Origin: Ginglymostoma cirratum
Lineage: Eukaryota
Length of the DNA: 64,000 nucleotides
Assembly (NCBI GenBank): GCA_024137785.1
Contig: JAHRHZ010000024.1
Location: 33,154,644-33,218,643, forward strand
Direction: 5' to 3'
Positions 4,362 to 59,564 of this stretch are shown in pieces; within the stretch, counting starts at the first letter, position 1, and each line of letters opens with the position of its first letter. The notes under the pieces are model-generated. The model did not search any database. It was not told the origin of the DNA and saw only the letters and a program-made list of their open reading frames with translations. Both the position numbers and the translations under genes were made by a program.

Positions 4362-4486
4362 AACAACATGGTGTAGAGCTGGATGAACACAGCAGGCCAA
4401 GCAGCATCAGAGCAGGAATGCTGACGTATCGGATCTGGACCCTTCTTCAGAAATTCTCCAGCACTGGCAGTCCCTACTACCTCTGT
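4362..4486. mobile_element. Penelope family A fold-back mini-insert (inverted hammerhead arm plus forward tail)
   Basis: Minus arm 4362-4454, plus-strand tail ttctccagcactggcagtccctactacctct; 13-bp TSD agaaattatatgc at 4349-4361 and 4487-4499. Confidence 0.88.
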
Positions 4487-5295: not shown

Positions 5296-5386
5296 AAAAC
5301 AAAAAGTACTGGAGATCACAGCAGGTCAGGCAGCATCTATGGAGAGAAAGCAAGCCGATGTTTTGAGTCTACACAACTCTTCAGAG
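5296..5386 (-). mobile_element. Penelope terminal fragment (family C)
   Basis: Matches 54706-54810 (ggagatcacagcaggtcaggcagcatct..gcaagc..ttttgagtct..ctcttcaga). Confidence 0.7.
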
Positions 5387-11565: not shown

Positions 11566-12045
11566 TCAGACATGAACAAAAGTGCTAAACTCTATAAGGG
11601 AGGTGAGAGCAACCACCTTGATATCAAGGCAGCATTTGACCAAGCGTTGCATCAAAACTCTCAGCAAGATCCACTACAGCAACTCAGCAACGCTCCCCTC
11701 CAAAAGGAGCAGTGAAAGAAGGCTGTCTACCCTCAGAGATAGTAGGAACTGCAGATGCTGGAGAATCTGAGATAACAAGGTGTAGAGCTGGATGAACACA
11801 GCAGGCCAAGCAGCATCATAGGAGCAGGAAAGCTGACATTTCTGGCCTAGACCCTTCTTCAGAAAGAAGGCGGCCCTTCTTCTGGTGAAGGGTCTAGGCC
11901 CGAAACGTCAGCTTTCCTGCTCCTATGATGCTGCTTGGCCTGCTGTGCTCATCCTGTCTACCCTCACTTTGTCAAGGATAAATCTGGGGTCGGTGATAAA
12001 TGCTAGCCTAACCAGAGAAACCAACATCTCAAAAATCAATTTTTT
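11566..12045 (+). mobile_element. Deleted fragment of the tRNA-headed LINE (RT piece plus 3' tail), interrupted by a Penelope fold-back
   Basis: LDIKAAFDQALHQ RT motif; tail gataaatgctagcctaaccag matches the SINE/LINE tail. Confidence 0.7.
11736..11953. mobile_element. Penelope family A fold-back element with two opposed hammerhead motifs
   Basis: Minus arm with tail 11736-11865, plus arm 11880-11953; 13-bp TSD ctgtctaccctca at 11723-11735 and 11954-11966. Confidence 0.92.
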
Positions 12046-14548: not shown

Positions 14549-14784
14549 ATATTCAGCACGTTTTGAAGAGACAAAAGAAGAAGGTCACTGACTTGAAAGG
14601 CTAACTTATTTCTCTCTCCAAAGGTCCTGAGCAAATCTGATTTTTTTTTTCTAATAATGGTAATTAAGCTGTGTAAAACGTAGGAAATTGCTTCAAAGTT
14701 GATAAGTTGAATCAAGAGTGTAAATCACAAACCCCCCCTTATCCTATTAAGATACACTAAACAGGGCCGATGATCTTGGCCCTG

Positions 14785-14881
14785 TTCTGAGGAAGGGTCA
14801 CTGGACCCAAAACATTAACTCTTTTCTCCTTCACAGATGCTGCCAGACCTGCTGAGCTTTTCCAGCAACTTTGTTTTTGTT
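14785..14881 (+). mobile_element. Penelope family B solo unit starting at the hammerhead
   Basis: ctgaggaagggtcactggacccaaaacatt; imperfect 15-bp TSD gccgatgatcttggc / gcccatgatcttgcc at 14766-14780 and 14882-14896. Confidence 0.8.
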
Positions 14882-15727
14882 GCCCATGATCTTGCCACTT
14901 AAATACAACACTGACCAGTTACAAAGTTTCTGCATGCCTTTCACTCTTAGCTAATGTTCATATCACTGGAAAATGATGGGTGGGAAATACCCATTAATTT
15001 ACTTCATTCAACTTTGTTTTTGATAACTGCAATGTGAGAATATTTCACCAATGAGACTCAAGAGGCTTACCCCATCAATGGCAGGATGAAAGCAAACCAA
15101 ATAAATTATGCAGCTAGATAATAATAGATTGCGGTGCCACATTTCTCTAGATTTATGTTACAGGGCATGCTTACTCCTTGAGTGCAATGTGTAGAAAATA
15201 AATGAAGGAGATCCAAGACCTCAAACTTCAGCAGTTCAGACTAGTCCCAGGTTTCTCCCAGTGTGTGGACCCAAATGCTCAGACTGATGAAGTAACGACT
15301 ATGAGTTACCTGACATTAAACCTTTCTCTTGGATCACTGGTGGAGCATAAATAATCAAATGTGAACCTTTGGCTTTGCACCCAGCACCGCTGACAGAGAC
15401 ATCTTAAAGTTCTTTGTTTGTCTCAGGGTCAAAGACTGGTGGTCGACTCTTGTTCCTCTTTTTGAGCAGAAGCCTGAATCAACCCAGAAACAAACTTATT
15501 CAGAACCTTCTCAGGCACACTGTGCCCAGGTGAAAGAGGAGCACAGAGGAAAATAAAACAATCTTATCATCTTAAAGGTTTCTTAACTATTAAACTCATC
15601 TATGCTAAACCACGAGATTAATGAATACAGGTCCCTCCACAAAAAGTAAGCCAACCAAGATAACGACTATTTTATCTTGCCTCCCTTCAATATTTTCCTT
15701 GACTAGCACCTTCTGAAGTAATCATTC

Positions 15728-16157: not shown

Positions 16158-17113
16158 TTGCTAGTAACTGTAAATTAACTCAAAAGTAGAAACAACTCCT
16201 CAGAGAACATTATATGAACAGGATTCTGTTGTCAAACTAAAAATGTGCACATCCATCAAATAACTGAGGAACGTAACATGAATTTGAGTGGCTGTGTGAT
16301 GCCAGGTATGTAGGACATACATCTCAACAGGTGCCAGACTGTATTAAACAACATATCCTGTTGACCGTTTCCAGCAAGTAGCATCCACTTGTGCTTGCAA
16401 GTTACAGAAAAGTATTTCCACCATGAGATGTGATCGTCTATTAGCAATCAGCTATTAAATGATCCAAACTGTGTTCCACAACAACACTGAAAACCATTTT
16501 CAGATCATCAGCCGGGTTCACGGTAAGATGCATTCGAGTGTTCTAACAGTTACACAAATACCGTTTTACGTAGGCAAAAAGGCATTTGCACCTTTCCAAA
16601 AAAAGGGAGACAATCCATGCTGCATCTCTACAAAAACACCCTGATCAATCAGAATCTACCTGCCTGGGTTGAGAATCAAACTTGATGGTGAACTAGTCTT
16701 GCTGCATCCCCATGCAAATCAGTACCCTCTTTTCAAGTTAAATAAAATGGTGCTTTGCCATTCAAGCCTGTTTCTCGTGCCCTTTTTTGGGGAGTGCAGG
16801 ATGAATAGCTTCAATTTCTAGTCTCCTTTTAGCAATATTCAAGTCCTTAAAGGACAATGAGAAGTTATTGGATTAGGTGTTAAGTGTTCAGAGAGAAAAT
16901 AGTGCAGTGTATATTGGTCCCAATGATCCAATCACAACTACACTGTCACAAAAATTCTGCGTTAGAAACACAAATTTGCACAATTGCTATGCCATGCTTG
17001 GTTTTATAATGGTCCTGTGAAATGCATTGAGATGTTTTATTACATTAAAGGCACCGTATCAATACAGTTGGTTTTTTCCTAACTTAGTGGAATAGGACAA
17101 TAACCTAAAGCAT

Positions 17114-17244
17114 TTCTGAAGAAGGGTCTAGGCCCGAAACGTCAGCTTTCCTGCTCCTCTGATGCTGCTTGGCCTGCTGTGTTCATCCAGCTCTACACCT
17201 TGTTATCTCAGGTTCTCCAGCATCTGTAGTTCCTGCTATCTCTC
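17114..17244 (+). mobile_element. Penelope family A solo ~130-nt unit (hammerhead plus terminal repeat plus tail)
   Basis: Starts ttctgaagaagggtctaggcccgaaacgtc, ends tcctgctatctctc; possible TSD aagcat at 17108-17113 and 17245-17250. Confidence 0.9.
17116..17143 (+). ncRNA. Minimal type I hammerhead ribozyme motif
   Basis: CUGAAGA-A-GGGU(CUAG)GCCC-GAAA-CGUC; stem I weak in this copy. Confidence 0.7.
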
Positions 17245-18414: not shown

Positions 18415-18427
18415 TTTTTAAAACAAG

Positions 18428-20870: not shown

Positions 20871-20894
20871 AAAAAAAAAATTCATGACAATAAA

Positions 20895-21250: not shown

Positions 21251-21974
21251 TGCTTTTATTTAAGTGATTAGTGTTTTTCCAAAGCTTCAGTTGAAGGAAT
21301 TAAGCAGTTTTGCACTTAAACAGGGGAATTTATGATTCATTCATTTTATAGACAAGGAATCCTGCAACACCCACGAGCCCCCAAGCCTTAATAGTTGAAC
21401 TTTTCCCAAGCAAATGAAGTCTCACTAAAGATGGGCAATTTTGGAGATTACAGTGGTCTGGTGTGTGGTGCCCAATCTTACGGACTGAAGAATGGCCTTG
21501 ACTTACTCTCCAGCCAGCATCTGAAGGGTTACTGGAACAGCATTAGGCTAAAGCAGGAAGGGAAGTCAAACTTGTGTTATTTATCTTTTCCAGCCAGCTG
21601 CAGCAGTGGAAAGAAAAATTGGAGACTCAAGTTTTTTTCTTATCTTATTCTAAGTTAATATGAATGGTGCCATGTATGTATGACGAAGGTACATACTTTC
21701 CACTGTAGTTTTACATTGAATACACGTGACAATAAATGATTCAATAATCAACCAAATGCTGACTTAGTGTCAAGCATGCACACACTCACCCTACCTGAGT
21801 GCTTTTGTTTAAGTGATTAATATTTTTCCAAAGCTTCAGTTGAACAAATTAAGCAGCTTTGCATTTAAACAGGGGAATGATTCATTTTATAGACTGGGAA
21901 TCCTGCAAAATTCATGAGCCCCCAAGCCTCAATTGTTAAATTTTCCCCAAGCAAATGAGGTGTCACTAAAGATG
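21209..21974. repeat. Local direct duplication of ~225 bp (21209-21433 and 21753-21974)
   Basis: Shared blocks gtgctttt..taagtgatta..tttttccaaagcttcagttgaa..taaacaggggaat..gagcccccaagcct..aagcaaatga..tcactaaagatg. Confidence 0.9.
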
Positions 21975-25458: not shown

Positions 25459-25797
25459 GGAGACATGGTAGCTGAGTGGTAATCCACTTGACTAGTAATC
25501 CAGACGCTCAGGATGTGCATTTTAATGGAAGTTGGCGGGATTTCAATTCCATTAAAGTCTTGAATTAATGACCACCAATAATCATTGTTATAAAAACATC
25601 TGATTCACAAAACTTTCAGAGATAGTAGGAAGGATCGAGGCCCAAAACGTCAGCTTTCCTGCTCCTCTGATGCTGCTTGGCCTGCTGTGTTCATCCAGCT
25701 CTACACCTTGTTATCTCTGATTCACAAAACTTACCCAGTTTTCCTCAAGTAAGGCTCCAGACATACAGCAGTGTGGCTGACTCATAACCACACTCTA
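25459..25797 (+). mobile_element. Decayed tRNA-headed SINE/LINE head, interrupted by a Penelope insert
   Basis: ggagacatggtagctgagtggtaat..gactagtaatccaga..aaaaacatctgattcac..ctccagacatacagcagtgtggctgactc. Confidence 0.7.
25616..25715. mobile_element. Penelope family A fold-back mini-insert
   Basis: Inverted tail tip agagatagtagga fused to forward arm aggatcgaggcccaaaacgtc; 17-bp TSD tctgattcacaaaactt at 25599-25615 and 25716-25732. Confidence 0.9.
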
Positions 25798-29500: not shown

Positions 29501-30444
29501 GCAGAAGTATGCAAATCATAAGTGTTCCTGAAGTACAATGTTGAAGGATTAGTGATGTGAGATCTGTGCTCCAGCAGGCATGATGAGGTGGTGAGACGGG
29601 TGATTTGCTGATGTCAACTCATGTGGGCAAAAAGTTGAGGAGGATGGTGGTAATGGAGCATGCAGGAGGGACATTGCTCTGAAAACATAGTTGGATGATA
29701 GCCACGAAATGAAATCGGTAAACTGCTGCCACCTCGTACCAGCTGGATTTAAAGGTCAGGAACGTGCGCTACCAGTTTCTCCTGAAAGGGAAGGAGAATT
29801 GAAAGAGTCATAAAATAGAGGCAAGTTGGGCTATTAATGTTTGCAAATGCAAGGAAATAAGATAGATGTCCCTCAGTACAGGATTCTGAAATCACCATTT
29901 AAAGCTCAAAGGGAAAATTGGAAAAATTTTTCTCAACATTGAGATTCTGAATTTTTTCATTCTTAGCCTATTTCTGCTTTTCTTGCCAATGTCCATACAG
30001 AACAGAGAGGGGAAGGCCTCATCTGATGTTTCAATCTGCACATTCGCATTTCTTTTTCTTTCCTTTGATGTTTTTATTAATACTGCATGCCACAGTTCAA
30101 AACAGCATGACAGTATGCATGGAGCTCACGGGTACTTATGTTTGAAATACTAGTTTCTAAACAAAAAATGGTAAGTTTGAGCCCCTGTCTCCGTTAGGGT
30201 TAAAGCAACAGGAAGGTCTGAATGGGGAGCTATAAAGAAGGGGAAAACATCCCACAGCAGAGCAAGGAATTAGCTAATTTAACAATAGCATGGCTGCAAA
30301 ACTGTAGCTTTAGGCAAATTACTGCAGTGAGTCACTGGAAGGCACAAAATTGGCATTTCACAAAATGAAATTCTTTTCTCAATTTTCTGCTCTCCCATTG
30401 CTGACTTGACCTGCGACTCACTCCATATTGTAGATATAACTGGG

Positions 30445-30915
30445 CAGGGACTGGACCAGGGAGGAAAGTCCAAGTCAAGGTAAGAAGAGATGAATTCTGT
30501 GAGGAAGGTGCAGACAGAAACAATGGATCTGCCCAGGCAGACCTGTTTGTGAATCTTAGGAAGGAGGCAGAAGCAAGCTTTGTGGTGCTGGGGGACTGTC
30601 AGCTTGGAGGTGGTGGAAGGAAGAGATCGCCAAATCAAATGGGGCTCGTGACCATGGTTGACACAATGGCCTGATGTTCTATCGTGATCCAAGTGGAGAT
30701 AGGAGGAGGTATCTGAGAGCTGGCGCTCAGCCTCTGCAATGTAGATGTCAGCCTGCCAGACCACAACAGCACCAGCCTTATTGGCAGGCTTAATAACAAA
30801 GTTAGGGTTGTATCTGAGAGCTCAGAATGCAGTCAGCTCCCAAGAGGATAGGTTGGAATGAATAAACGGAGGCAGGGAAATTGAGGTGACCAATGTCACA
30901 CTGACAGTTCTGAAT
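30445..30915 (-). mobile_element. Penelope reverse transcriptase N-terminal fragment
   Basis: VIKPANKAGAVVVW..YIAEAERQLSDTSSY..LLPKIHK..GRSIVS..TEFISSYLD. Confidence 0.88.
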
Positions 30916-31977
30916 GAACTGACTGTTCATCCTTTGCAAGTCCAGCTAACAGCCAATGGCGAGCCATCTGACTGAAGGAGGCATCACAAGGGAGCAGACA
31001 CATGCCCTCCTTCCAATTGTTCATGTTGGCACACTCTACTGGTGGGACAACGAAGAGTAGGTACAAAGTAACCCCTTGCTAGCCCAAGAATTTGGAGGTC
31101 CACAATAACTCCACTACACAGTCCAGTGCAGAAAAGTCAAGAGCAGGAGCATATCACAAGACTTTTTTGGTCTGTATCATAAATGTGGTGTCTTTCTACA
31201 TAAACCGCTGAAGCTCTTCAGAGGAATGTTTTTCAATCTACTCAAAGTGAAATGTTGTCAGGCTAGAATTCATAAAAACATGCAGGGGGACACTTGAGAG
31301 TGAGCAACAAAGTATTGATGCCAGTGTTGAGAGACGGAATTAATTGCAATAAATGTCATTTTCTGCACTGTTATAACAATGAAATATCTGATAACAGGCT
31401 GTCGACATAGTTAATAAATTACTACCTAAAAATCACAATGAATGGGTCTTCTAGAAAAGACAAACAGGAAACCATTTCTGCCCAAGCAATTATTCTTTGT
31501 CTCTAATGATCTACCCAGTGCTTTCGGTTCAAATGCCTGGCGTTTACCCCACATAACACCTCTGTTACAGTTTTAATGCATTTTCTTTTTCAGTTCCTCT
31601 GTGGAAAATTTTGTTACAAACGCAATTTACTACTTAACAATGAATACCATGTTCAATACACGAAGAAATAAAGATCTGAGGATAATCATGTTACACCACT
31701 CCTGGGAAGTACTGTGATGCTGTAATTGTAATTGAGCAGTGCCAAGTCCTTTTTTCCTCAATTGTCTTCACACAAGACTGGCCTTTTGAAGGAAAGTACA
31801 AAGATGTGAATTCCACTATAGTGATAGAACGATCAATACACTGAGGTCCAGACAATGCTGCTGGCGTTATTGTAAGAATCAGCATAATTAGAATGAAGAG
31901 GTGGGAGAAATTACTGACATATAGAAACAATATTGCTGGAGAAATTCAGCAGGTCTAGCAGCATTTATGGAGAGAAA

Positions 31978-32908
31978 ACCGATGTCCATTTCAAGCACAC
32001 TGACTCCCACAGCTACCTGGAATACACCTCCTCCCACCCACCATCCTGCAAAAATGCCATCCCCTATTCCCAATTCCTTCGCCTCCGCCACATCTGCTCC
32101 CAGGATGAGACATTCCACTCCCATACATCTCAAATGTCCTCATTCTTCAAGGACCGCAACAACCCCCCACAGTGGTCGAGAATGCCCTCGACCGTGTCTC
32201 CTGCATTTCCCGTAACACATCCCTCACGCCCCGTCCCCGCAATAATAACCAAAAAAGAATCCCCCTCGTCCTCACGTACCACCCCACCAACCTCCGGATC
32301 CAACGCATCATCCTCCGACACTTCCGCCATCTGCAATCAGACCCCACCACCAAAGACATTTTTCCCTCCCCACCCTTATCTGCCTTCCGGAGGGACCACT
32401 CCCTCCACGACTCCCTTGTCCGCTCCACACTCCCCTCCAGCCCCACCACACCCAGCACTTTTTCCTGCAACCGCAGGAAGTGCTACACCTGCCCCCACAC
32501 CTCCTCCCTCACCCCAATCCCAGGCTCCAAGAAGACTTTCCACATCAGGCAGATGTTCACCTGCACATCTGCCAATGTGGTATACTGCATCCGCTGTACC
32601 CATTGTGGCTTCCTCTACATCGGGGAAACCAAGCGGAGGCTTGGGGACCGCTTTGCAGAACACTTGCGCTCAGTTCGCAACAAACAACTGACCTCCCAGT
32701 CGCGAACCATTTCAACTCCCCCTCCCCTTCCTCAGACGACATGTCCATCCTGGGCCTCCTGCAATGCCACAGTGATGCTACCCGAAGGCTGCAGGAACAG
32801 CAAATCATATTCAGCCTGGGAACCCTGCAGCCCAATGCTATCAATGTGGATTTCACAAGCTTCAAAATCTCCCCTCCTCCAACCGCATCCCAAAACCAGC
32901 CCAGCTGA
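31978..32908 (+). pseudogene. Penelope ORF C-terminal part, two frameshifts (~32165 and ~32690)
   Basis: Three overlapping track ORFs (31933, 32172, 32480) join into one RT-thumb/GIY-YIG protein ending QNQPS*. Confidence 0.88.
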
Positions 32909-33192
32909 TCTCCACCTCCCTAACCTGTTTTTCCTCTCACCTATCCCCTCCTCCCACCTCAAGCCACACCCCCATCTCCTATCTACTAACATCATCCCGC
33001 CCCCTTGACCTGTCCGTCCTCCCTGGACTGACCTATCTCCTCCCTACCCCCCCTACCTACACTCACTTTTACTGGCTCCATCCCCGCCTCTTTGACCTGC
33101 CTGCCTCCTCTCCACCTATCCTCTCCTCTATCCATCTTCTATCCGCCTCCCCCTCTCTCCCTATTTATTTCAGAACCCTCTTCCCCTCCCCC

Positions 33193-33228
33193 ATTTCTGA
33201 TGAAGGGTCTAGGCCCGAAACGTCAAGT
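33193..33228 (+). ncRNA. Minimal type I hammerhead ribozyme motif
   Basis: AUUU-CUGAUGA-A-GGGU(CUAG)GCCC-GAAA-CGUC-AAGU; 4-bp stem I, predicted cleavage after 33224. Confidence 0.8.
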
Positions 33229-35525
33229 TTTCCTGCTCCTAAGATGCTGCTTGACCTGCTGTGTTCATCCAGCCCCACGCTTGTTATCTCTGACATTTCA
33301 AGTCCGGTGAATTTCAGTCCTTCTTGAGAACTGAATGCAAAGAAAATTAGTACCTAACCTCATTAACTCCCCAGGATTGTTGGTTTTTGTAGAGGGCAAT
33401 CAGAACCAGAATACACTGCAGCTTGGGAGCGGCTGCAGCAAAAAGCATTCATTGATGGTTTCAAAAAGAGAAAGGAGAGACATGGTAGTAGAGGCAGAGT
33501 GGGAGGAGACACCCTTAGACTATTAGTGGTGGTTTAAACTGGTTGAGCCATTGAGCCATTTGGCCTGTTTCTGTTCTGTAAAGTCCATAAGCTGCACTTG
33601 ACACAACAACATTCACAGTAGTCTGACAGAAGTAATAAGAAGGTTGAGCAGACGTTACATTTCTTTATCAAAAATGAGGAGTGAAGTGCATTATGCTGAT
33701 GAGATGGTACATGTCATCACAGTAAGTGATACGATGTCACATGATTATTCTCAGTCTCTTGCAGCCTTTTGGCAAGATTAAGATGCAGTTTTTAAATAAA
33801 GTTAACATCTTCTTTAACTCAGCAGATGGTAAATATTTTTCAGGAGCTCCACAAGATCAAAATTATTATCACATTAAGCATTTGAATCCCTGGATTTATG
33901 TTTGAGAGACATGATTTTGTTTGCTGCTCCAAAACTGATATTCTTAAACTTCTAAAATCCCTTTAATAACTGAGGGCTGTGAATGGAAGTAAACAGATTG
34001 GTAAAGTACTAAGCTAAAAGATGGTCACACTTCATACACCGTCTCCTCATACATGCAGCTTGGAAACAAATATCAGACAAGGGCAAATGAACATCAATGC
34101 TGAAACTGTCATGGAGTCAGATGACTGAAGATGCTTCAAACTGGCAGGTGGGGCCTAAAGCCAGGATTCTCATTCCCCATTACCATTTCTATCAATTTTC
34201 ATTGGTTGGGGATAACAGTGTAGATGTCAAACCACCCATCTTTGCTGCCTCCATTATGGGATTAAGATCTTTAAAGCCCCTGTAATTTTAGTGGAATCGG
34301 ACCTCTTCAGTAAAATGTGATTCATTTATATGTCTATCTGAAAGACATGGACAATGTCGCAGACTGCAGGGAGAGGTCTGCTCTCTCTTCCAGTGAATGC
34401 TTAGAGGAACGCTGTCTAACAGCAGCTTGGATTACACCTATAGTGGGGCCCTGAAGTGACACAGATACAAAGTAAAATGGGATATGCTCTTATACCTTCA
34501 GAATACAGTGTGCACGTTTCCAGTAAAAACAATAGAAATGAGATGATTTGGGAATTAATAATGCCCAAGAGAAAGTTCTGGGTCATTCACAAAAGGTGTT
34601 GGGACAGGCAGAAGGATACAGCAACTGTTAAGGGCTAAGCGGTGCGACAGAGTGTTAAAAAGTCAAATATCACTAGTGCACACATTGAAATTAACCTCGT
34701 ATCTGCAGGTAAAGCAACCTTTGATGAGGATCAACTGCAGGCTCAAAATAAAATCGTGAAACTTCGGTACAGAAGAGGAATGTACTAAACAAATCATTAA
34801 GAGTGCAGTGAATGAAAGCAGATAAGCATAACTTGCTCTTATCTGTACTCTAAATGAAATTTACTTCAGTTCAACTGGGCTGCTAAAATGGAACACAGTT
34901 ATGAATAAATGCAAAAAATTCTCTTTTTTTGTGCACCATGCTATCATTATTCCTTATCAGATTCATTTTATGCTACATATGACAAGCAAAAGCACAGCAG
35001 GAAGGGAAAACAAAAGCTGTAATTGATAACACAATAACTCGGTGCTTGCTTAACTTGAGCTCAATCCTCACTTCCCTGAAACCAACCCCAGCTCCAATCT
35101 CAGATGGCCTTCTCCAAGCCAAAACTGCAGCCATTCTGTTAAGGGCTATCAGCAGAAACACAATCACATATCACAACATAAGCATCTTCTTGATGCCAAA
35201 ACCCACACAACTGATTCTAAAATGAGTCTGACATGTTACTCTGTAGCAAACCAACAAGAATTCCTTGAACCCGATCTCTGAACATGCTCACACTACAAAC
35301 TCTTCAATTCCGTCTCCAAACTGTAATGATCAGTTTTGTCTGTAATTGAAACATAGTTTGGAGCATTCTATTTGCTTCATCTTTGTTCCACAGAGATTCA
35401 AATGCTTTGCAATTCAAACTATTTATATAAATATGTCCTTCTTTTATCCCCATTCTAATTGTTAATTGTTGTTGTTGTTGCAGTTTCATTAAGCTCATGC
35501 AAATAAAGCACCAAAAAATACAAAA

Positions 35526-35992
35526 CACCCCCTGCCACTCCCTGGGTGACATGTCCATCCTGGGCCTCCTTCAGTGTCACAATGATGCCACCCGCAAACT
35601 GGAAGAAAAGCACGTCATAATCCATCTCGGGAGCCTACCTCAATGGCCTAAACGTGGATTTTACCAGTTTCAAATTCTCCCCACCCCGGCCTCATACCAT
35701 GACCAACCCTCCCTCTCATCCCCACCTCCCTGACCTGACAAAACCTGTCTATCTTCTTTCCCACTGATCCGCCCCACCCTTCCCACTGACCAGTTCCCAC
35801 CACTCCCTACCTGCACTCACCTATCATCATCCCACCTACCTTCCCCAGCCCCAAACCTCTTCTCTATTTATTTTGGAGCTCCCCTCGCCCTCCCCCATTT
35901 CTGAAGAAGGGTCCTGACCCGAAACGTCAATTTTCATGCTCCTCTGATGCTGCCTGGCCTGCTGTGTTCCTCCAGCTCTATACTTTTGTTAC
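35526..35992 (+). mobile_element. Penelope 3' fragment (subfamily related to A)
   Basis: DMSILGLLQCHNDATRKLEEKHVIIHLGSL; C/T-rich UTR; hammerhead motif. Confidence 0.9.
35897..35932 (+). ncRNA. Minimal hammerhead ribozyme motif
   Basis: CUGAAGA-A-GGGU(CCUG)ACCC-GAAA-CGUC; U-A replaces the U-G pair of family A. Confidence 0.75.
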
Positions 35993-38744: not shown

Positions 38745-39333
38745 TGAGATAACAAGGTGCAGAGCTGGATGAACACAGCAGGCCAAGCAGCATCAGAGGA
38801 GCAGGAAAGCTGACGTTTCGGGCCTACNNNNNNNNNNNNNNNNNNNNNNNNNNNNNNNNNNNNNNNNNNNNNNNNNNNNNNNNNNNNNNNNNNNNNNNNN
38901 NNNNNNNNNNNNNNNNNNNNNNNNNNNNNNNNNNNNNNNNNNNNNNNNNNNNNNNNNNNNNNNNNNNNNNNNNNNNNNNNNNNNNNNNNNNNNNNNNNNN
39001 NNNNNNNNNNNNNNNNNNNNNNNNNNNNNNNNNNNNNNNNNNNNNNNNNNNNNNNNNNNNNNNNNNNNNNNNNNNNNNNNNNNNNNNNNNNNNNNNNNNN
39101 NNNNNNNNNNNNNNNNNNNNNNNNNNNNNNNNNNNNNNNNNNNNNNNNNNNNNNNNNNNNNNNNNNNNNNNNNNNNNNNNNNNNNNNNNNNNNNNNNNNN
39201 NNNNNNNNNNNNNNNNNNNNNNNNNNNAAACGTCAGCTTTCCTGCTCCTCTGATGCTGCTTGGCCTGCTGTGTTCATCCAGCTCTACACCTTGCTATCTC
39301 AGATTCTCCAGCATCTGCAGTTCCTACTATCTC
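38745..39333. mobile_element. Penelope family A fold-back element spanning a 400-N gap (38828-39227)
   Basis: Minus arm without tail, plus arm with tail; 13-bp TSD taaaataataatt at 38732-38744 and 39334-39346. Confidence 0.9.
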
Positions 39334-40380
39334 TAAAATAATAATTAACCAAATTTCACAGAGCCATGTATTCCAATGCAAGAATAGCAGCTTTAGATTC
39401 AAATAAGGGGAAAACTTCCATGACCATAAACTGGTCAAGTTGAAAATAATCAAGAAGCGCATACATTATCTGAGCCATGTGATGCAACATTCCCTTTTAT
39501 TAATTTATTCAACATTTTTATATAAATTTATTACACCAAGTAACGACAGGTCATTTAGAAAAAGTCCTGTAACTTACTTTCAAGCCTCATTACCAAAACA
39601 TCATCCAAATGAAGGCCACAATGATATAATGGAATATCAGCACATTTCCACAATAAGCCAATAAGTGGCCACAGCATAAACAGAATGAGCTTTCATACTT
39701 GCACTGCAGGAAGTATGTTAAGACACAATATCGTACCAAAATGGCTAAATACTGTTTGATAATGGGATTGCCTAATGATAAAAACACAAATATCTTTTGT
39801 TCTATGCACTTTAGGCTTTTTAAGCTTGAGCAAAACGTCACCCCGTTTCTAATTAAAAAACAATCAAGAGAAACCACATTCTGTAAAAACGATTTACTGG
39901 TACAACTATCATACTGGAGCAATTTTAGACAAAGTCCGATGCGCCCTTTTCAAATGCCAACCAACCAGTATTTGGCCCACGTGCTGGGAGCAGAACAAAC
40001 ATTTTTTCCTATGTGTTGTTCAAAATGCCAAAAATAATCTAAAGTTTGGAATCATGACTGTTTTAATAACAGGCCAAGCAAAAAAATCCAGGCTTGGGAC
40101 AAATCACACCACAATTTCAAGTGGTTCTGACATTCTGTCTGAAATCTCAAGCAGGTTTCAGCAGTCCCTGTCAACTGATTCATTTTCCAGGTGTCATTAC
40201 ATGAACCATTTCATTCAATACAGCATGGCCGGCCTTGGCCTTTTGACGAAGAAAACATTTCCAGCAAGCAGAGGGCTGGCAAGGTTTGGTTGGCACTTTG
40301 TGTCACTGGATCTGGGAACAGAAGTTTCCTTTGGCAGTGTGTCGCCTCTGTGTGACACTCAGTAATGGAAAGGATTTTGG

Positions 40381-41487: not shown

Positions 41488-41838
41488 ACTGAGATGATCC
41501 CAACAGTGCAGAAGCAGGTCATTTGGTTCATCAAGTTCACACCAATCCTCCAAAGAGCATCCCATCCAGATCCACCCTATCCCTGTAACCCTACATTTCC
41601 CATGACTAATCCACCTAGCTTGCACATCCCTGAACACACTGAGCAATTTAGCATAACTGCACCACCTAACCTATACATCTTTGGACTATAGAAGGAAACC
41701 AGAGCACCCAGAGGAAACCCGGATAGAATGAAGAGAACGTGCAAACTCTACACAGACAGTTGCCCGAGGATGGAAGCAAACCCAGGTCCTTGGTGCTCTG
41801 AGGCATCAGTGTTAACAACTCAGCCATCATGCCACCCC
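41488..41838 (-). mobile_element. HE1-like V-SINE
   Basis: Reverse complement of the 4898-5223 / 46178-46537 family. Confidence 0.88.
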
Positions 41839-41879
41839 TGACAGAACAGCCATTTGATCAAGTTACTAAAGAAGAATGC

Positions 41880-42619: not shown

Positions 42620-42713
42620 AGAGATAACAAGGTGCAGAGCTGGATGAACACAGCAGGCCAAGCAGCATCAGAGGAGCAGGAAGGCTGACGTTTCAGGCCT
42701 AGACCCTTCTTCA
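42620..42713 (-). mobile_element. Penelope family A solo arm (no tail), truncated at the hammerhead core
   Basis: gagataacaaggtgcagagc..gacgtttcaggcctagacccttcttca. Confidence 0.88.
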
Positions 42714-42734
42714 CCCAGGCAAGTCTTCTGCGCA

Positions 42735-49202: not shown

Positions 49203-49785
49203 TGGCTCACCAAGCTGGCTTGTTTTTGTTCAAACATTTCATCACCATTCTAGGTGACATCATCAGTGGACCCTCTGATGAAGCGATGTCATTCTACTCC
49301 GCTTGGAATTTATACTGTCTGCTCCGTTATGGTGAGTACTGTCATTTCCACTTTTGATCTGTGTGGGTTTATATATGGGGTCCAATTCTATATGTTTGGT
49401 GATTGAAGTAAGGATGGAGAACCATGCCTCTACGAATTCCTGTGCATGTCTATGTTTGGCTTGGGCTACTATGGTTACCATGTCCCAGTTAAAATGATGG
49501 CCTTCATTGTCTGAATGTACAGATATTAAGGAGAGTTCCTTATTGGATTGGACACCATATACAAACCCATACAGATCAAAACCGGAAGTGACACTGCTCA
49601 CCATAACGGATCAGACAACATAAATTCCAAGTGGAGTAGAATAACATTGCTTCATCGGAGGCTCCATTGATGATGTCACCTAACATGATGATGAAACGTC
49701 TGAGCAAAAACAAGCCAACTCAGTGAATAAGTCAACAAACTCATCCACAACCCGAGCTACAGATCTTTGCCAATATTTTAAACAA
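49203..49785. mobile_element. Penelope family E (Poseidon-like) fold-back inserted in CR1
   Basis: Minus arm encodes SLISVHSDNEGHHFNWD..EFVEAWFS..IELDPIY (GIY-YIG C-terminus); plus arm 49545-49785 is its inverted copy with extra tail. Confidence 0.88.
49231..49268 (-). ncRNA. Hammerhead motif with 6-bp stem II (family E); second copy at 49665-49702 (+)
   Basis: CUGAUGA-U-GUCACC(UAGAAU)GGUGAU-GAAA-UGUU on minus; plus copy UUGAUGA..GAAACGUC; each copy carries transition mutations. Confidence 0.65.
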
Positions 49786-52374
49786 GTGTGGGCATAACAC
49801 GCTAAAAATTCTTGCTCCTGTTTCATCCTAAAGGGAACATATCAGGTCTGTACTCTCCCTAGTAGTTTTTTGTATGCCTCCCACTCCTCTGCAGTAAATT
49901 TACCCTCAGGTAGCTGATGCCAGTCTACTTTGGCCAGATCCTGCCTTATTTTAATAAAATCTGTCTTTCCCCATTCCAAAACCCTTTTTTTGGAAACCAC
50001 CTTTCTCCATTTCCATAACAAACTCACAACCTACTGTGTAGCAGTCACTATCACTTCAAACACCTGTCAGCTTCATTCCCCAAAATTAGGTCCAGCACTG
50101 CACCGTCCCTTGTCTAACCACCTACATGCTGACATAAAAAGCTTTCTTGTATGCATTTCAAGAAATCCGTTGCCTCTAAATCCTTTACACTATAACTATC
50201 CTAATTCATATTAGAGTAGTTGAATTCCCCAAATACAATTATTTAATATTGTTTTTACATGGCTTTATGAATTGACAACACATCTGCTCCTAAATTGCCC
50301 ATTGTCTATTTGGGAGTCTATAGTACACTCCTAACAGTGTGACTAACCCCTTTTCCATTCCTTATTTCAACCCACGAAACCTCATTTGAGGACCCTTCCA
50401 TGATAACATCCTCCTTACAGCAGTAATTGACTCCCTAACTAATCATGCAACACCATCTCCATTTTTTGGCACCCTCCCCTGTCCTGCTTTAAGATCCTAT
50501 ACTGCAAAATGTTAAGATCTCAGTTTTGTCCCACCCTCAACCACATCTTTGCGACAGCAATAACATGGCAATTCCATGTATCAATCCATACCCTTAACTC
50601 CTCTGTCCTACCGCTAATACACCTAGCATTAAAGTAAAGGCCAACCATGTTCACCTTACTGCCTTGAGGTACCAGACACCTAAACTCCTTGTGCCTTAGT
50701 TCCTTTCATTAGTTATGCTGTTAAACTATTGCATTGTTTGCCCAGTCCCTGCTGAACTAGTTTAAACTGCTCCCTGCAGCATTCGCAATCTCGCCTGCAA
50801 GGATGTTAGTCACATTCTGGTTCAGGTGCAGAATATCCCGCTCATGAAGGTCCCATCTTCCCCAGAAACAGACCTAGAGATCCAGAAATCTAAAACCCTC
50901 CCTCCTGCAATATATACTGAGCCATGAATTCATCTGCTCTTTCTCGACTTGCCAGCATCTGGTGCTGGGAGTAATCCTCAGATGACAATCTCCAAGGTTT
51001 GGATTCTTAATCTGTTGCCTCGTTCCCTGAACTCTTGATGCAAGGCCTCATCTCTCATTTTACCTATTCCATTAGCAACAATATGTACCACAGCTTATCT
51101 CCCTCCCGCTTTCAGGTTGCAACCTTGATCTACGCACCAGGGATGCAACGCACGATTGTGGAGTACATCTGCAGCTACAGAAATGCCTGCCTGCTTCCTT
51201 TACTAATGAATCCCCAATTACCATCATTCCTACTTTCTTCTTCCTCCACTCGTGTACAGTCAGGCTGCCTGTAGTGCTAGAAGCCTGGCTCTGACAGTAG
51301 TTCCTTGATGTACAAACGCCCTTCACAGCTTCCAGAACAGAAGACTGATTGACGAATAGGACTACATTGGACTCCTGAACTACCTGCCTGTCTGTCCTTG
51401 GCTACCTGGTAGTCACTGATTCACTTCTTTCCTCCAGTCCTTTCAGCTGCAGTGTGACCACCTCTCTAAACATGCTATCCACGGACTTCTCAACATCAGG
51501 GATTTTCCACACTATCACGACTCACTGCTCAAGTTCCAAAACCTGGAGTTCAGGTTTGTGCAGTTGTGAGCACTTCCTGCAGACACAGTCAACTTGACAC
51601 CGGCTGGATCTGTGACTGTCCACAGATGAGAGGAAACACATTCCACTCAGCGGCCCTTGCCTACTGGAATTTGAAATTCTTTGGGTTTATAAGCATATCC
51701 ATAAATTGTTTGACGCTTTTTTAAAATAACTGCAATTTAGGGAACATTCTTCAAGGTAGCCCCCTTAGCAGCCAATCAGCGCACTGCTTTCCTGTGACAT
51801 CACTCCAGTTCGTTGTCAATAGTCAAGTATAACCTGGGTCCACCACATTGAGACATGCTGTAAGATGGATAGTCTCATCTAAACACAATTTCTACAATTA
51901 AAGAAACATATGAATTGTGAAAGAGTTCACATTTTTTTAGCCCCCCGTCCCAAAGTCTCTAAAAGTAAACTAAAACAAACTTCACATTGATGCTCAAAGT
52001 TCTAAATTTAGGTGAATTCAAAAGTGAACAGAGTAAATTGCTTATTGTTCTGAATTAAAAGCACATGCTTTGCATGCATCAGACACATGAAAGCTCCCAA
52101 GTGGCAACAAAAGCTTCAATTTCTCTAATTTAAATCTCCATCCTAATTCTGACCCATGGAACTCACACATGGTCAGATATCAGGCTCCAAAGTAATCACA
52201 TTTGGCAATTGATTTGTCTCAAATGAAAAGACAATCACCAAGGAGATCCATCAGAGGCGTGAGGCAATTAAATTAGAAGAAATTTAAACAAATGTACGAA
52301 ACCTTCAGAGATACAGGCTCACATGTTCAACAGAAATTCAGGGTCAAAAATCTTCAAACTCCTTTTCTCACAGT

Positions 52375-54149: not shown

Positions 54150-54347
54150 ATGTGGAGGTGCCAGTGTTGAACTGGGTTAGACAAGGTCAGAAATCATACA
54201 ACACCAGGTTACAGTCCAACAGTTTTATTTGAAAACACAAGTTTCGGAGTCTTACTCTCACCTGAAGAAAGAGTAAGACTCCAAAAGCTTGTGTTTTTAA
54301 ATAAACCTGTTGGACTACAACCTGGAGTCATGTGATTTCTGACCTTG
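54150..54347. mobile_element. Penelope family D fold-back with hammerhead-like motif
   Basis: ~80-bp inverted arms (54182-54258 and 54270-54347), ~32-nt tail on the left only; ctgaaga-aa-gagt(aag)actc-c-aaaagctt (left arm has cgaaa). Confidence 0.8.
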
Positions 54348-54705
54348 ATTAAGAATCACAAGACAGAAAAGAATGGTTAAGTATCAGGCTTGAACATGGA
54401 GCCTACCATAACTTCTGAAACACGATCAATGTCTGGGTGGAGTTCTGTGGTTTTCTGACGAAAAGACCATACCCATGGGTAAATAAGAATTGCATGAGGA
54501 GCAGAGGTCCAAAGACAGAGAAGGGCACCTTACTTAGCTGGTATCAAGGATTTGGTATGGTGTAACGCTAAGGATCAAGACCATGTGACATATTGAGGGA
54601 GGTTTTCTGCCTTTGCTCTCTCTGTACAGAGCATTATGCACCAGATCTATATCTTGGAATGTTGAACATTGAGAATAACACAGCCATGAATTGATCACCT
54701 CATCT

Positions 54706-55360
54706 GAAAACAACAATGCTGGTGATCACAGCGGATCAGACAGCATCCATGGAGAGAGAGAGCAAGCTAATGTTTTGAGCTAGGATGACTCTTCATCAGA
54801 GCAGAAGAGAAGTGTGGAGGGGACAGCGTTTATGCTAGAGTTGGCCAGGGGTGGTGGGTGTGAAGTGCTGGTTGAGAAAAGACGCTGATAGTTCAGATTA
54901 AGTGATCAGAATGTGAGAATAGCAGAACAATGATGTATCTGTCATCTGATGAAGGGTTTAGGCCCGAAACGTCAAGTTTTCCTGCTCCTATGATGCTGCT
55001 TGACCTGCTGTGTTCATCCAGCCCCATGCTTGTTATCTCGGATTCTCCAGCATCTGCAGTACCTTTTATCTCTGACAGTCCCACTGAGTTGGGGGGGAGC
55101 AGAGGGAAGGCAGGGAGGGGAGAGAGAACATGGTGATAGAGAATGTAACAATTAAAGCTTGTGGTGTTGAACTTAATATTAAGTCCAGAAGGCTGTAAAC
55201 TGCCCAGTCTGAAGATGAGGTGTTGTTCCTTTCCTGTAGCCAGTCATTTTAACACAGTGTCCTGCTCGCCTGCCCACTTGTCTGTCCTCGGCATGCTGCA
55301 GTGCTCCAGTGAATCACAGCACAAACTGGAGGAACAATACCTCATCTTCAGACTAGGCAG
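54706..55360. mobile_element. Penelope family C 3' end (minus, 54706-55230) with inverted ORF piece (plus, 55231-55360)
   Basis: Minus EQHLIFRLGSLQPSGLNIKF; plus PVASHFN..LSVLGMLQC..KLEEQYLIFRLG; degenerate hammerhead ctgatgaagagtc at ~54770-54809 (-). Confidence 0.85.
54944..55073 (+). mobile_element. Penelope family A solo ~130-nt unit nested in family C
   Basis: Starts at ctgatgaagggtttaggcccgaaacgtc (54946-54973), ends with tail gtaccttttatctct. Confidence 0.9.
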
Positions 55361-57298
55361 GAAGTCATGTACCACTCTAACCTCAGATCACAATAGGCCT
55401 ACATGGAATTGTTTCAGATAGCAACACTTACACACTAAAATGACAAGCACAGATGATACAGGCAGGGATCTGACATAACATGGTATTTAGCAAATTAGCA
55501 GTACTGAATGGATATTCCACAGCAAAAACAATGGGAGGTGCGGTTTCTCCTGGTGGTCATTTCACCTCTTAAAAGTTTGAGTATTCATTGTGTTTCTAAT
55601 GGCTTTGTTTACACTATGTTTTATTTGAACAAAAGGATTCAGGTTATGCTGAAGGCACAATTTTTGGTGGATGTCCCCTGCTCTATCAGCTAATCGATCA
55701 GCATTAATATTGAGTAATCTTTGACACTATGGAGTCAGACATACTAAATACTAGGATAAGGCCAATCAAGTTGCTTCACATCAAACCAATAAAGCTTAAA
55801 ATTGCTGTTAACCAAGAGTTAAATAATTGAAAATTTCTGGGAGACAAATTTGCAACAATTATGGTCCATTGCTTTACATCAACATGGCTTCTGGTTATTT
55901 CCTCCAAGTGAGCTAAAGGTTCATACAGCATTAGTCCAGTCTGGTTTGAAACCTGTATCCAAAAGCAAAAGCTCTGTGCTAACCCTATTGCACCATCCAT
56001 CCCACTCACTACCTCCTGTTATACCTCTGGCTTGCTGTACAACCGTGAAATAAATTCAATGGTCGTGATAATTCAAAGTCAGTATTTGCACAAAAGAAAA
56101 AGCAAATCTAACTCATCCTGCAACTTTAAACAAAAAAAAATGGACTGCAGACTTTTTAGTGTAAACTGAATTTAATTGCTTCAATGACTTTAATGAAGTA
56201 ACTTTGACTTCTTGTGAGTATGAAGGAGTTTCCTAACCCGTGTTGATGTATTAAACTGAAAACACAGAGAAGCATTTTGAACCATGATCTGCAGATGTTG
56301 CATCAAAGGAACAATATTGAGCAACCCAACTAATATGTTATTTTCTTCATAGTCATATTTATTAAACTGCCCCTTATTACAAATTTAGGTTTTGCATTAT
56401 TATTTGTTGTCAATCAAAGTGAGTGAAACAATGAATAAAAAATTTACGGCATCTTATGAATTTCTAATTACAATAATGAAATTCAAATGAATTCTGAACA
56501 GTTCAATATATTACTTTATAGAAAATTACGGCAATCTGATACCTCTGGGCCTTATCATAAACAGTCAGGGCGGCAAGTTATTAAAGGAAAAATCACAGTG
56601 GTAAATATGCTTTAGGCATAAAATGTGTATCGTTGGGTATCTAACATACAGAGCAACCTCCCTCTAAGTGGGTCAGCTGAATAGATTCTGAGCGAGGGTA
56701 TACGCTTTACTTGTGCAGTTGCATCCTATAGAGTATCAGGGTCACAGAGCTTTACAGAAGAGAACGAGAGTCTTTGCTCCATCGTGTCCGCACCAGTCAA
56801 CAAACACCTCCCATTTTCCAGGACTTGGCCTGTCGTGTTGCTATGTCGTTTCGCATGTTCAACAAAATACTTCTGCAATGTTGTGAGGGTTCCCGCCTCC
56901 ATCTCCATTTCGGGCAATGAATTCAAGATATGTCCAACCTTCAGTTGAAGAAAATGCCTCCTCAAATCCCTTCGAAACCTCCCACTTCTTAATCTTAAAT
57001 CTGTGTCCCCAGTTATTGACCCCTCCATTTTGGGAAAATGTTGCTTCCTCAAAATTTTGCACACTTCAACCACATTTTCCCCTCAACCTCTTTTGCCTGA
57101 AGGCAAGCACTCCCAGCTAATCCAATCTCTACGACAGTTGAGAGTTCCAGTCAAGGTAACATCCTGGTGAATCTCCTCTGCACCCTCTCTAATGCAATCA
57201 TCCTTCCTACAGTGTAACGATCGAAACCACACAATACTCCAGTCGTAGGGCTGGATGAACACAGCAGGCCAAGCAGCATCATAGAAGCAGGAAAGCTT

Positions 57299-57326
57299 GA
57301 CGTTTCGGGCCGAGACCCTTCATCAG
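57299..57326 (-). ncRNA. Minimal hammerhead ribozyme motif
   Basis: CUGAUGA-A-GGGU(CUCG)GCCC-GAAA-CGUC. Confidence 0.75.
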
Positions 57327-58173
57327 AAATGGGGCAGGGGAAGAGGGTTCTGAAATAAATAGGGAGAGAGGGGGAGGCGGATAGAAGATGGATAGAGGAG
57401 AGGATAGGTGGAGAAGAGGCAGACAAGTCGAAGAGGCGGCGATGGAGCCAGTAAAGGTGAGTGTAGGTTGGNNNNNNNNNNNNNNNNNNNNNNNNNNNNN
57501 NNNNNNNNNNNNNNNNNNNNNNNNNNNNNNNNNNNNNNNNNNNNNNNNNNNNNNNNNNNNNNNNNNNNNNNGTAGATAGGAGATGGGGGTGGGGCTTGAG
57601 GTGGGAGGAGGGGATAGGTGAGAGGAAAAACAGGTTAGGGAGGTGGAGATCAGCTGGGCTGGTTTTGGGGAGGGGAGATTTTGAAGCTTGTGAAATCAAC
57701 ATTGATACCATTGGGCTGCAGGGTTCCCAGGCTGAATATGAGTTGCTGTTCCTGCAGCCTTCAGGTGGCATCACTGTGGCATTGCAGGAGGCCCATGGGC
57801 CCTGCAGCCCAATGGTATCAATGTTGATTTCACAAGCTTCAAAATCTCCCCTCCCCCAACCGCATCCCAAAACCAGCCCAGCTCATCTCCGCCTCCCTAA
57901 CCTGTCCTTCCTCTCACCTATCCCCTCCTCCCACCTCAAGCCCCACCCCCATCTCCTATCTACTAACCTTATCCCGCCCCCTTGACCTGTCCGTCCTCCT
58001 TGGACTGACCTATCTCCTCCCTACCCCCCCTACCTACACTCACCTTTATTGGCTCCATCCCCGCCTCTTTGACTTGTCTGCCTCCTCTCCACCTATCCTC
58101 TCCTCTATCCATCTTCTATCCGCCTCCCCCTCTCTCCTTATTTATTTCAGAACCCCCTTCCCCTCCCCCATTT

Positions 58174-58201
58174 CTGAAGAAGGGTCGAGGCCCGAAACGT
58201 C
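58174..58201 (+). ncRNA. Minimal hammerhead ribozyme motif
   Basis: CUGAAGA-A-GGGU(CGAG)GCCC-GAAA-CGUC. Confidence 0.75.
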
Positions 58202-59564
58202 AAGCTTTCCTGCTTCTATGATGCTGCTTGGCCTGCTGTGTTCATCCAGCCCCACACCTTGTTATCTCGGACTCTCCAGCCTCTGCAGTACCTTTTATCT
58301 CTAATACTCCAGTCGTGGTCTAGTTAATGTTACATACAGTTCCATTATAACCTCCATGCTCTTGTATTCGATGAATTTGACTAACAAAGGCAAGTATCCT
58401 ATATGACTTCTTAACCACCCTATTCAGGGTCCTGTTGCCTTCAAGGATTTGTACAATAAGGTCCTGCTGATCCTCTGTACTTTCACAGGTCCTACCATTC
58501 ATCACATGCTGTCTTGTTTTGTTAGTCATCCCAAAATGCAATGCCTCACAGTTTTCTAGAATAATTTCCATTTGCCACTGCCCCGCCAACCTGACCAGCT
58601 AATCTATATCATCCCCGTGGTCTCAGGCTTTACTCCTGGCTTTTAAACACACACTAATTTTGCTGTTATCTGTGAACTCAGTGATCATACCTCCTACAGT
58701 CATATCGAGATCATTAATGTACACAACAAACAGCAAGGGACCCAGCACTGAACTTTGTGGTATGCAACAGAGCACAGGCATTATATGTCACAAAGAAATC
58801 ATTTGACCATCACCCTTTGCCTCCAACCACTAAGCCAATTTGGATCAAATTTGCCAAATTGCCCTGCATCCCAGCTCCATTGAACAAGTTAAATTAAGAG
58901 CCATTCCATTCCACAGTGTCTCCTCACTTGGCATTTTAAAAACACAATGATACTCAATTAGCTTACAATCACATTTTGTAATGGAGAAATGTACAGTTCT
59001 GAACTTTTTAAAAAATCATTATGTTTTCTTCTATGGAATTGTCACACAAATCCTGAAACTATCAACTGTACTTTTTCCAGATCTCACCATGTACATTTGG
59101 CACACAGACTCTAGGCCAGTAACTAGTGGTTTCACATCATGGATACTGATATAAACATGTTATAATAATATCCCTTTTAACTCTTTGAGCATCCCACTTT
59201 TTGCAGAATTAAAATTAATACCTTTTTGTATCGATATTAGAATATCAATGGTGCCAATACATCAGATATCTAAAACTGTCAAAGTTAATCAACCTTTAAA
59301 AGGAAATTGCTAACTCTAAAATTAAAATTCTTTATCAAAAACATTATTTGGGTTATCAGCGCGATGGTAAAATATTGTGCCTCTACTTTGGGGATCTGGT
59401 ATCATTATTTCAATTGTTTTTTTGGAAGTGTCTACTTGCAGAGGGGAAGGTTTCTATCTATTTTAGTCTGAGAGATTTTGCTCCAGGAACAGGACTTATT
59501 TCAGTCCACACAAAACCGTGTCCTGTGACTCTGACCAGTATTCATCATCATATCTCAATAATTC

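What the first reader, a model, noticed from the sequence alone, without database searches (positions are those of the whole stretch)
33193..33228. Minimal hammerhead ribozymes with covarying stems across about five Penelope families
Seen: the core CUGA(U/A/G)GA..GAAA with an NUH-type triplet recurs with different stem II sequences that still pair. Examples are GGGU/GCCC (17116, 33197, 54946, 57299, 58174), GGGU/ACCC (35901), GGGUC/GACCC (14787), GUCACC/GGUGAU (49231) and GAGU/ACUC (54262). Stem III is a loopless palindrome (GAAACGUC, GAAACGUU, AAAGCUU). Established: Penelope terminal repeats carry minimal hammerheads that cleave as dimers through such palindromes. Inference: this locus holds over 15 intact or degenerate copies on both strands, so a transcript through it could pair same-strand copies and self-cleave.
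Basis: partly seen in the sequence, partly recalled or inferred. Interest (0 to 1): 0.75.

Follow-up and report, generated by a model that had tools for sequence, protein, structure and literature searches.

The report
Penelope retroelement hammerheads, mostly decayed
The repeated self-cutting-RNA motif is really in the sequence, but it is the "minimal hammerhead" already described in Penelope-like jumping genes; only 6 of 23 copies here are intact, and these are likely inert leftovers of old insertions.

Summary
33193-33228 is a complete minimal type-I hammerhead motif, about 290 nt downstream of a frameshifted GIY-YIG gene fragment whose relatives are RT + GIY-YIG proteins. The window holds 23 whole or partial copies in five sequence groups (12 +, 11 -). 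Only 6 are intact, all in one group; shuffles give 0. Pairing across groups is compensatory in all three helices (top of 120 permutations in 14 of 16 tests), though three groups are related. These features match the PLE min-HHR of Cervera and de la Pena 2014. Cleavage of a transcript through this locus is unsupported: no host gene found, antisense copies out-compete the 4-bp dimer helix, no sign of selection on the core. One lead: 7 of 11 measurable 5' ends of the main group lie at the ribozyme's 5' edge, none at the cut site. The scan reported this kind before on other shark DNA.

The parts
33193..33228 (+). Intact min-HHR, group A: stem I 4 bp (33193-33196 with 33225-33228), core CUGAUGA 33197-33203, unpaired A, stem II GGGU/GCCC, GAAA, palindrome ACGU, predicted cut after 33224
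31978..32908 (+). 5'-truncated, twice frameshifted 3' part of a PLE ORF (RT thumb, CX4CX2C linker, GIY-YIG endonuclease), Neptune-like
32909..33192 (+). Pyrimidine-rich 3' UTR / pLTR between ORF and ribozyme; about 95% identical to 57800-58170
33229..33290 (+). Tail after the ribozyme, ending at TTATCTC
17111..17243 (+). Short group A copy, intact motif (C3 17116, stem I 2 bp), begins 5 nt before C3
35524..35995 (+). Older long group A copy with endonuclease C-terminal remnant and intact motif (C3 35901)
54945..55075 (+). Short group A copy, intact core (C3 54946, stem I 1 bp), lying inside the 3' UTR of the group E copy
57245..58303 (.). One inverted group A insertion with two intact motifs on opposite strands (C3 57326 -, 58174 +), flanked by a 16-bp target duplication (1 mismatch); holds a 100-N gap
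11735..11958 (.). Inverted group A insertion, two defective motifs back to back (11862 -, 11882 +), 13-bp target duplication
4365..4485 (-). Short group A copy (C3 4450, A14->U) with an inverted tail arm, 13-bp target duplication
25618..25720 (+). Short group A copy lacking CUGAN, with an inverted tail arm, 19-bp target duplication (1 mismatch)
38745..39337 (.). Inverted group A insertion; both motifs run into a 400-N gap; 13-bp target duplication
42621..42714 (-). Short group A copy truncated at C3, with C11.1->U
14781..14882 (+). Group B copy (stem II GGGUC/GACCC), G12->A, broken palindrome, 13-bp target duplication (1 mismatch). Other B motifs near 59746 +, 2845 -, 52634 -
54690..55360 (-). 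Group E copy (C3 54799, stem II GAGU/GCUC, defective) with a weak endonuclease C-terminal match at 55175-55228 (-) and an inverted piece at 55227-55358 (+). Second E motif near 5385 -
49207..49790 (.). Group C inverted pair (C3 49266 -, 49667 +), 6-bp stem II, both defective; AUG formed by A9-U-G10.1
54182..54347 (.). Group D palindromic insertion (C3 54262 +, stem III AGCU, defective; partial inverted arm); no ORF link in the window

Best explanation
The motifs are minimal type-I hammerhead sequences in the terminal repeats of Penelope-like retroelements, scattered here as truncated and inverted insertions that are likely inert and decaying. Shown: the motif anatomy, its place downstream of a GIY-YIG gene fragment (group A), compensatory pairing between groups, target duplications, and defects in 9 of 15 full-length motifs. 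From the literature: in an active partial-tandem element two such motifs about 3 kb apart on one RNA pair their ACGU/AGCU palindromes into a shared helix III and cut after the UH, slowly and perhaps with help from the element's protein. Inferred: the between-group covariation records selection on the active source elements; after insertion the copies are free of constraint and methylated-CpG transitions at C11.1-G12 and 15.2-16.2 destroy the core. Inferred: uncleaved RNA was the template, because no measured copy begins at the cut site.
For: Descriptor: 6 intact versus 0 in 20 shuffles. Unpaired nucleotide after A9 in 15 of 15, G10.1-C11.1 in 10 of 15, Watson-Crick 15.2-16.2 in 11 of 15: the features listed in PMC4209133. 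ORF 32109-33008 hits PF01541 at E 1.4e-4, 22.5 bits against a 22.6 cutoff; 6278 relatives at E<=0.001; of 7 long relatives scanned, 5 show RT + GIY-YIG, 1 RT only, 1 GIY-YIG only. Target duplications of 13-19 bp at 6 of 20 extents tested versus 1 of 390 random pairs. Group-level permutation: 28-32 of 35 pairs native, top rank of 120 in 14 of 16 tests and 2 of 120 in the other two; full mismatching gives at most 13-18. 10 of 16 defects are CpG-type; window CpG o/e 0.25. In 10 group A copies the conserved positions differ in 6 of 150 cells versus 5 of 280 in the tail (Fisher p 0.20). Tens to hundreds of thousands of contigs per run lay on the element.
Against: No activity was measured. PLE origin is not shown for group D and only hinted for group C (Atlas score 0.87, GIY-YIG on 17% of members, a lead only; homolog search negative). 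The Pfam score is just under the cutoff. The selection test is small and its tail segment was anchored on an 8-nt exact match, which lowers tail divergence. Rfam gives no hammerhead match at E<=1. Six copies are intact, so low-level cleavage cannot be excluded.
Confidence: 0.9

Rival explanations
1. One reading: a long transcript through the locus brings two intact same-strand copies together, they form the dimer helix III and the transcript is cut.
For: Five intact + strand copies share the ACGU palindrome; 33197-35901 are 2704 nt and 54946-58174 are 3228 nt apart, close to the roughly 3 kb spacing in whole elements (PMC4209133).
Against: None of 98 ORFs scanned (of 215 listed at >=65 aa) hit a host-gene family; the one hit is a LINE endonuclease. 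The 4-bp helix is predicted at -1.7 kcal/mol, against -137 to -223 for duplexes with antisense group A copies on the same strand; stem I probability is about 0 in all six intact copies and stem II is <=0.16 in four. Published: low activity even as dimers; 1 of 9 Xenopus dimer elements cleaved; the Anolis ribozyme needs the element's protein and no reads end at its cut site.
Confidence: 0.06
2. The short copies are a separate non-autonomous, ribozyme-headed unit of about 100-130 nt (SINE- or retrozyme-like) amplified from its own master copies.
For: Six group A insertions begin at the ribozyme's 5' edge; depth on the motif and tail exceeds that on the ORF in all 4 runs, a weak hint only. Non-LTR retrozymes are described as PLE derivatives with many monomers.
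Against: No tandem array of the unit. Short copies occur in two A subtypes (54946 is 96% identical to the long copy 33197) and in group B, which fits a shared mechanism better than one master. This rival would not change the verdict on novelty.
Confidence: 0.2
3. The motif is a chance resemblance inside an abundant repeat.
For: Single copies fold no better than shuffles (z -0.21 to 1.17); no Rfam hit.
Against: The same core recurs in groups with unrelated flanks (C and D do not match A, B or E), with compensatory pairs in three helices, at the position published for PLEs.
Confidence: 0.01

Closest known systems
Metazoan PLE min-HHR (Cervera and de la Pena 2014, PMC4209133; first two of four parts read: results, discussion, bioinformatic methods)
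   Same: Type I, loopless palindromic 15.2-16.2, unpaired nucleotide after A9, G10.1-C11.1, short helix I, several covarying families per genome, mostly single dispersed copies, pairs on opposite strands 100-700 bp apart.
   Different: Group A has a 4-bp stem II and a stem I of 1-4 bp. A cartilaginous fish is not named in the parts read; the supplements were not seen and may list such motifs.
Small dimer-cleaving hammerheads of Lunse, Weinberg and Breaker 2016 (RNA Biol 14:1499; paper not held, known from its citation in PMC6765202 passages and from recall)
   Same: Diminished stem III, association with PLEs, dimer cleavage.
   Different: Could not be compared in detail.
Poseidon_Ac ribozyme and tail (Frangieh et al. 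2024, PMC11167929; main text read, supplementary figures held only as fragments)
   Same: Ribozyme followed by a tail whose ends mark reverse-transcription starts; both strands extended, which fits inverted insertions with a tail at both ends; group C has an AUG at the start of stem II as PAc does.
   Different: Group A is Neptune-like (CX4CX2C linker); nothing was assayed here.
Neptune-clade PLE insertion structures (Craig et al. 2021, PMC8557442; Arkhipova et al. 2013, PMC3846280; passages read)
   Same: 5' truncation, inverted 5'-truncated copy, tail, target duplication around inverted structures, linker motif.
   Different: Duplications here are 13-19 bp, against 8-10 bp in the Adineta examples read.
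Non-LTR retrozymes (Li et al. 2026, bioRxiv 10.64898/2026.07.22.740005; first three of five parts read)
   Same: Short ribozyme-bearing PLE-derived units, found in the one cartilaginous fish they sampled.
   Different: Defined by tandem units each with a ribozyme; no such array in this window.

Membership tests
PLE min-HHR | Core CUGANGA ... GAAA ... UH with stem II | tested here: met
   6 of 15 full-length motifs free of defects, including 33197
PLE min-HHR | Unpaired nucleotide between A9 and 10.1 | tested here: met
   15 of 15 (A in 13, U in 2)
PLE min-HHR | G10.1-C11.1 pair | tested here: met
   10 of 15; three of the five exceptions are C->U at a CpG
PLE min-HHR | Palindromic 15.2-16.2, no loop 3 | tested here: met
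   CG in 10 and GC in 1 of 15; the other four are TG or CA
PLE min-HHR | Short helix I, type I topology | tested here: met
   4 bp at 33197, 0-3 bp in other copies, compensatory between groups; not predicted stable in local folds
PLE min-HHR | Families with compensatory changes | tested here: met
   Permutation across five groups, rank 1 of 120 in 14 of 16 tests; weak within A/B/E; R-scape not run
PLE min-HHR | Location in the pLTR of a PLE | tested here: met
   Group A; E weak (E 0.002 and 0.23); B by tail homology; C inconclusive; D unlinked
PLE min-HHR | Self-cleavage as a dimer | not testable with these tools
   Needs an in vitro assay
Neptune-clade PLE (group A) | C-terminal GIY-YIG preceded by a CX2-5CxxC linker | tested here: met
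   CNRRKCYTC before the GIY-YIG match; motif definition from PMC8557442 passages
Neptune-clade PLE (group A) | Placement by RT phylogeny | not tested
   No RT core is attached to the 33197 copy
Active full-length PLE | Intact RT-EN ORF between two pLTRs | tested here: not met
   Only truncated, frameshifted pieces at 31942-32866 and 30027-30890
Non-LTR retrozyme | Tandem units each with a ribozyme | tested here: not met
   No such array; nearest intact same-strand copies 2.7 kb apart
Canonical hammerhead families in Rfam | Match to a curated covariance model | tested here: not met
   No hammerhead family at E<=1

The most novel reading that the evidence does not exclude
The element's RNA begins 3-4 nt before the ribozyme core (CCATTTC at 33191-33197 fits a recalled initiator consensus), so the abundant short copies are run-off cDNAs primed in the tail of uncleaved RNA. 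The genomic 5' ends would then map the transcription start, explain why stem I is only 2-4 bp, and show that the ribozyme does not cut the template before reverse transcription. Basis: 7 of 11 measurable group A 5' ends (6 independent insertions) lie between -5 and about +8 of C3, the other four are 370 nt or more upstream, none is at the cut site; 57 contigs of one run end at 33194 with unlike flanks (agreement 0.36) and joints at 33194 occur in two other runs.
Probability: 0.3. Interest if true: 0.4.

Novelty: new member of a known kind. Interest (0 to 1): 0.14.

Why it matters
As it stands it adds one more genome to a class described in 2014. Its use is practical: a young, very abundant family with a 4-bp stem II and 2-4 bp stem I is a convenient substrate for the open question of what PLE hammerheads do. 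The clustering of 5' ends at the ribozyme's edge, if it marks the RNA's start, would tie the internal-priming model of PMC11167929 to genomic copy structure in a Neptune-like family.

Tried and rejected
No whole genome is held for this window, so no genome-wide census was possible. Rfam found no hammerhead; its five miRNA hits are inverted repeats below gathering score. MAFFT misaligned groups C, D and E, so group-level pairs were counted by descriptor. The covariance model built from 10 A copies and 1 B copy found 14 copies at E<=0.001, missed group C and misaligned D; other weak hits read (173, 54449, 17655, 42033) are not motifs. No RNA holder listed: runs marked RNA are guesses, and the laid contigs cannot show starts, strand or level, so expression and cut-site ends are untested; the variant table was cut (259 rows hidden), so nothing is claimed about core variation in it. 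Group C protein remnant: no homolog at E<=0.001 among 51 candidates, Atlas leads under 0.9 for named clusters. No tRNA genes. Lunse et al. 2016 is not held. Literature searches: 'hammerhead ribozyme + Penelope + shark' gave 1 paper whose only 'shark' is the shape simile; 'shark genome + Penelope + transposable elements + ribozyme' gave 0; (listing only) showed no title on 5' ends at the ribozyme. The library lacks most subscription papers, so this does not show absence from print. bioRxiv supplements and those of PMC4209133 were not seen and may list cartilaginous-fish motifs. A 7-bp duplication around 31914-33296 was not accepted as a target duplication (21 of 390 random pairs reach 7 bp).

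Full report
Observation. Position 33193-33228 on the + strand is a complete minimal hammerhead: a 4-bp stem I, CUGAUGA, one unpaired A, stem II GGGU/GCCC with a 4-nt loop, GAAA, the palindrome ACGU and C17 at 33224. A full descriptor finds 6 defect-free, 8 with at most one, 14 with at most two and 21 with at most three defects in the window; 20 dinucleotide shuffles give means of 0, 0, 0.05 and 2.6. Hand-reading BLAST, model and sequence output gives 23 whole or partial motifs, 12 on + and 11 on -, in five groups: A 13, B 4, C 2, D 2, E 2. Rfam reports no hammerhead.

Intactness. Of the 15 full-length motifs examined, six are intact and all belong to group A (17116, 33197, 35901, 54946, 58174 on +; 57326 on -). 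The other nine carry 16 defects at conserved positions, 10 of them CG->TG or CG->CA at C11.1-G12 or 15.2-16.2. The window is CpG-poor (o/e 0.25).

Covariation. With one observed copy per group, native arms give 28-32 of 35 pairs over stems I, II (without 10.1-11.1) and III. That is the single best of 120 arm permutations in 14 of 16 tests and among the top two in the others; full mismatching gives at most 13-18. Compensation includes G-C/A-U/U-A at 10.2-11.2, CG versus GC at 15.2-16.2, and U-A/C-G/A-U at the first pair of stem I. Caveats: five groups allow p no lower than 1/120; A, B and E share a homologous tail; group C has two and group A four alternative representatives, so the 16 tests are not independent. 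Among the 14 copies a covariance model finds at E<=0.001, stem II shows one doubly changed cell and the covariation score is reached by 5 of 500 shuffles, a control that ignores relatedness.

Context. The 33197 motif lies about 290 nt after the stop of a twice frameshifted ORF fragment at 31978-32908. It hits PF01541 at E 1.4e-4, just under the cutoff, has 6278 relatives, and 5 of 7 long relatives scanned carry RT and GIY-YIG. The linker CNRRKCYTC fits the Neptune/Nematis motif given in PMC8557442. Fourteen long relatives map further PLE pieces at 30027-30890 (-), 35524-35637, 55175-55358 and 57689-57793, which links group E weakly. Group C has an upstream remnant that resembles a Poseidon C-terminus from recall, an AUG at the start of stem II as in PAc, and only Atlas leads. 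Group D has no ORF link. Target duplications of 13-19 bp flank 6 of 20 extents tested, against 1 of 390 random pairs; five of the six are inverted insertions with a tail at both ends (5 of 8 inverted insertions), and four non-inverted group A copies have none. Inverted copies, tails and duplications are described PLE features. Four public runs lay 20,785 to 243,896 contigs on 31900-33400, so the family is very abundant. That the host is a cartilaginous fish is my recall of these repeats and the wording of earlier scan notes, not a test.

Mechanism. PMC4209133 defines this motif, lists the same four features, reports opposite-strand pairs and mostly single dispersed copies, and finds no monomer activity and low dimer activity. 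PMC11167929 finds that the Anolis ribozyme cleaves only with the element's protein, that cleavage is not needed for insertion in vitro, that no RNA-seq reads end at the cut site, and that tail ends are internal reverse-transcription starts. Li et al. 2026 found cleavage in 1 of 9 Xenopus dimer elements. The best reading is therefore that selection acted on source elements and that these copies are decaying. In ten group A copies conserved positions differ in 6 of 150 cells and tail positions in 5 of 280 (p 0.20), no sign of protection of the core, with the caveat of small numbers and an anchored tail.

Five intact + copies exist and two pairs lie 2704 and 3228 nt apart, so the geometry is not absurd. 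Against it: no host gene was found among 98 of 215 ORFs scanned, which does not exclude short exons or non-coding transcription; the dimer helix is predicted at -1.7 kcal/mol while antisense group A copies on the same strand give -137 to -223, and 58174 sits in a 227-nt, 95% inverted repeat with 57326; stem I has near-zero predicted probability in all six intact copies. Co-folds of natural pairs prefer an intermolecular duplex of the stem II arms over the double hammerhead. Expression was not testable.

A lead. Group A 5' ends are bimodal. Six ends measured against long copies begin at -5, -4, -3, -2, -1 and +1 relative to C3, a seventh at about +5 to +8 (25622); these are six insertions. Four ends lie 370 nt or more upstream; two are hidden in an N gap. 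None begins at the cut site. Group B copies at 14787 and 59746 also start within about 8 nt of the core. In public contigs, 57 of run X13 end at 33194 with unlike flanks, and joints at 33194 appear in X11 and X14 (only the best-supported rows were shown). A transcription start just before the core with run-off from tail priming would explain this; reverse-transcriptase stalling at the C-rich tract or a separate short master element would too. An internal promoter in the pLTR is known for Drosophila Penelope (PMC2377424, passages), though its start lies further upstream, before an intron.

Verdict. Real motif, known kind, mostly broken copies, locus-level self-cleavage unlikely. Earlier scan notes on other genomes reached the same class; they were treated as leads and the features were rechecked here. 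Interest 0.14.

Noticed in passing
window 31916-31978 (-) joined to 31978-33290 (+): A group B-type tail in inverted orientation abuts the 5' end of the group A element, with CTGACAT on both outer flanks. It could be a chimeric two-template insertion, but 7 bp is within chance (21 of 390).
   Followed up: partly
window 33205-33216: Stem II plus loop of group A (GGGUCUAGGCCC) is self-complementary over 12 nt; two copies are predicted to form a -22.6 kcal/mol duplex that competes with the double-hammerhead fold. Loop variants in other copies break it.
   Followed up: partly
window 54945-55075 inside 54690-55360: A young group A copy sits in the 3' UTR of an older, opposite-strand group E copy.
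   Followed up: partly
window 30027-30890 (-): A separate internal PLE fragment (N-terminal part and RT region) with no ribozyme attached.
   Followed up: partly
window 38828-39227 and 57472-57571: Both assembly gaps (400 N and 100 N) lie inside inverted PLE insertions.
   Followed up: no
window 271-942, 18942-21233, 56865-57246 with 58479-58863, 59918-61158, 62565-62942: Decayed LINE-type fragments (one Pfam endonuclease hit at 634-942); the 57245-58303 insertion interrupts one of them.
   Followed up: no
window 4895-5223, 41497-41839, 45621-45913, 46182-46539; and 6539-6886, 18080-18564, 43725-43993: Two other dispersed repeat families of about 350 nt, 70-80% alike, probably SINEs.
   Followed up: no
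window 21209-21433 and 21753-21974: A local direct duplication of about 225 nt, 83% identical, spacing about 545 nt.
   Followed up: no
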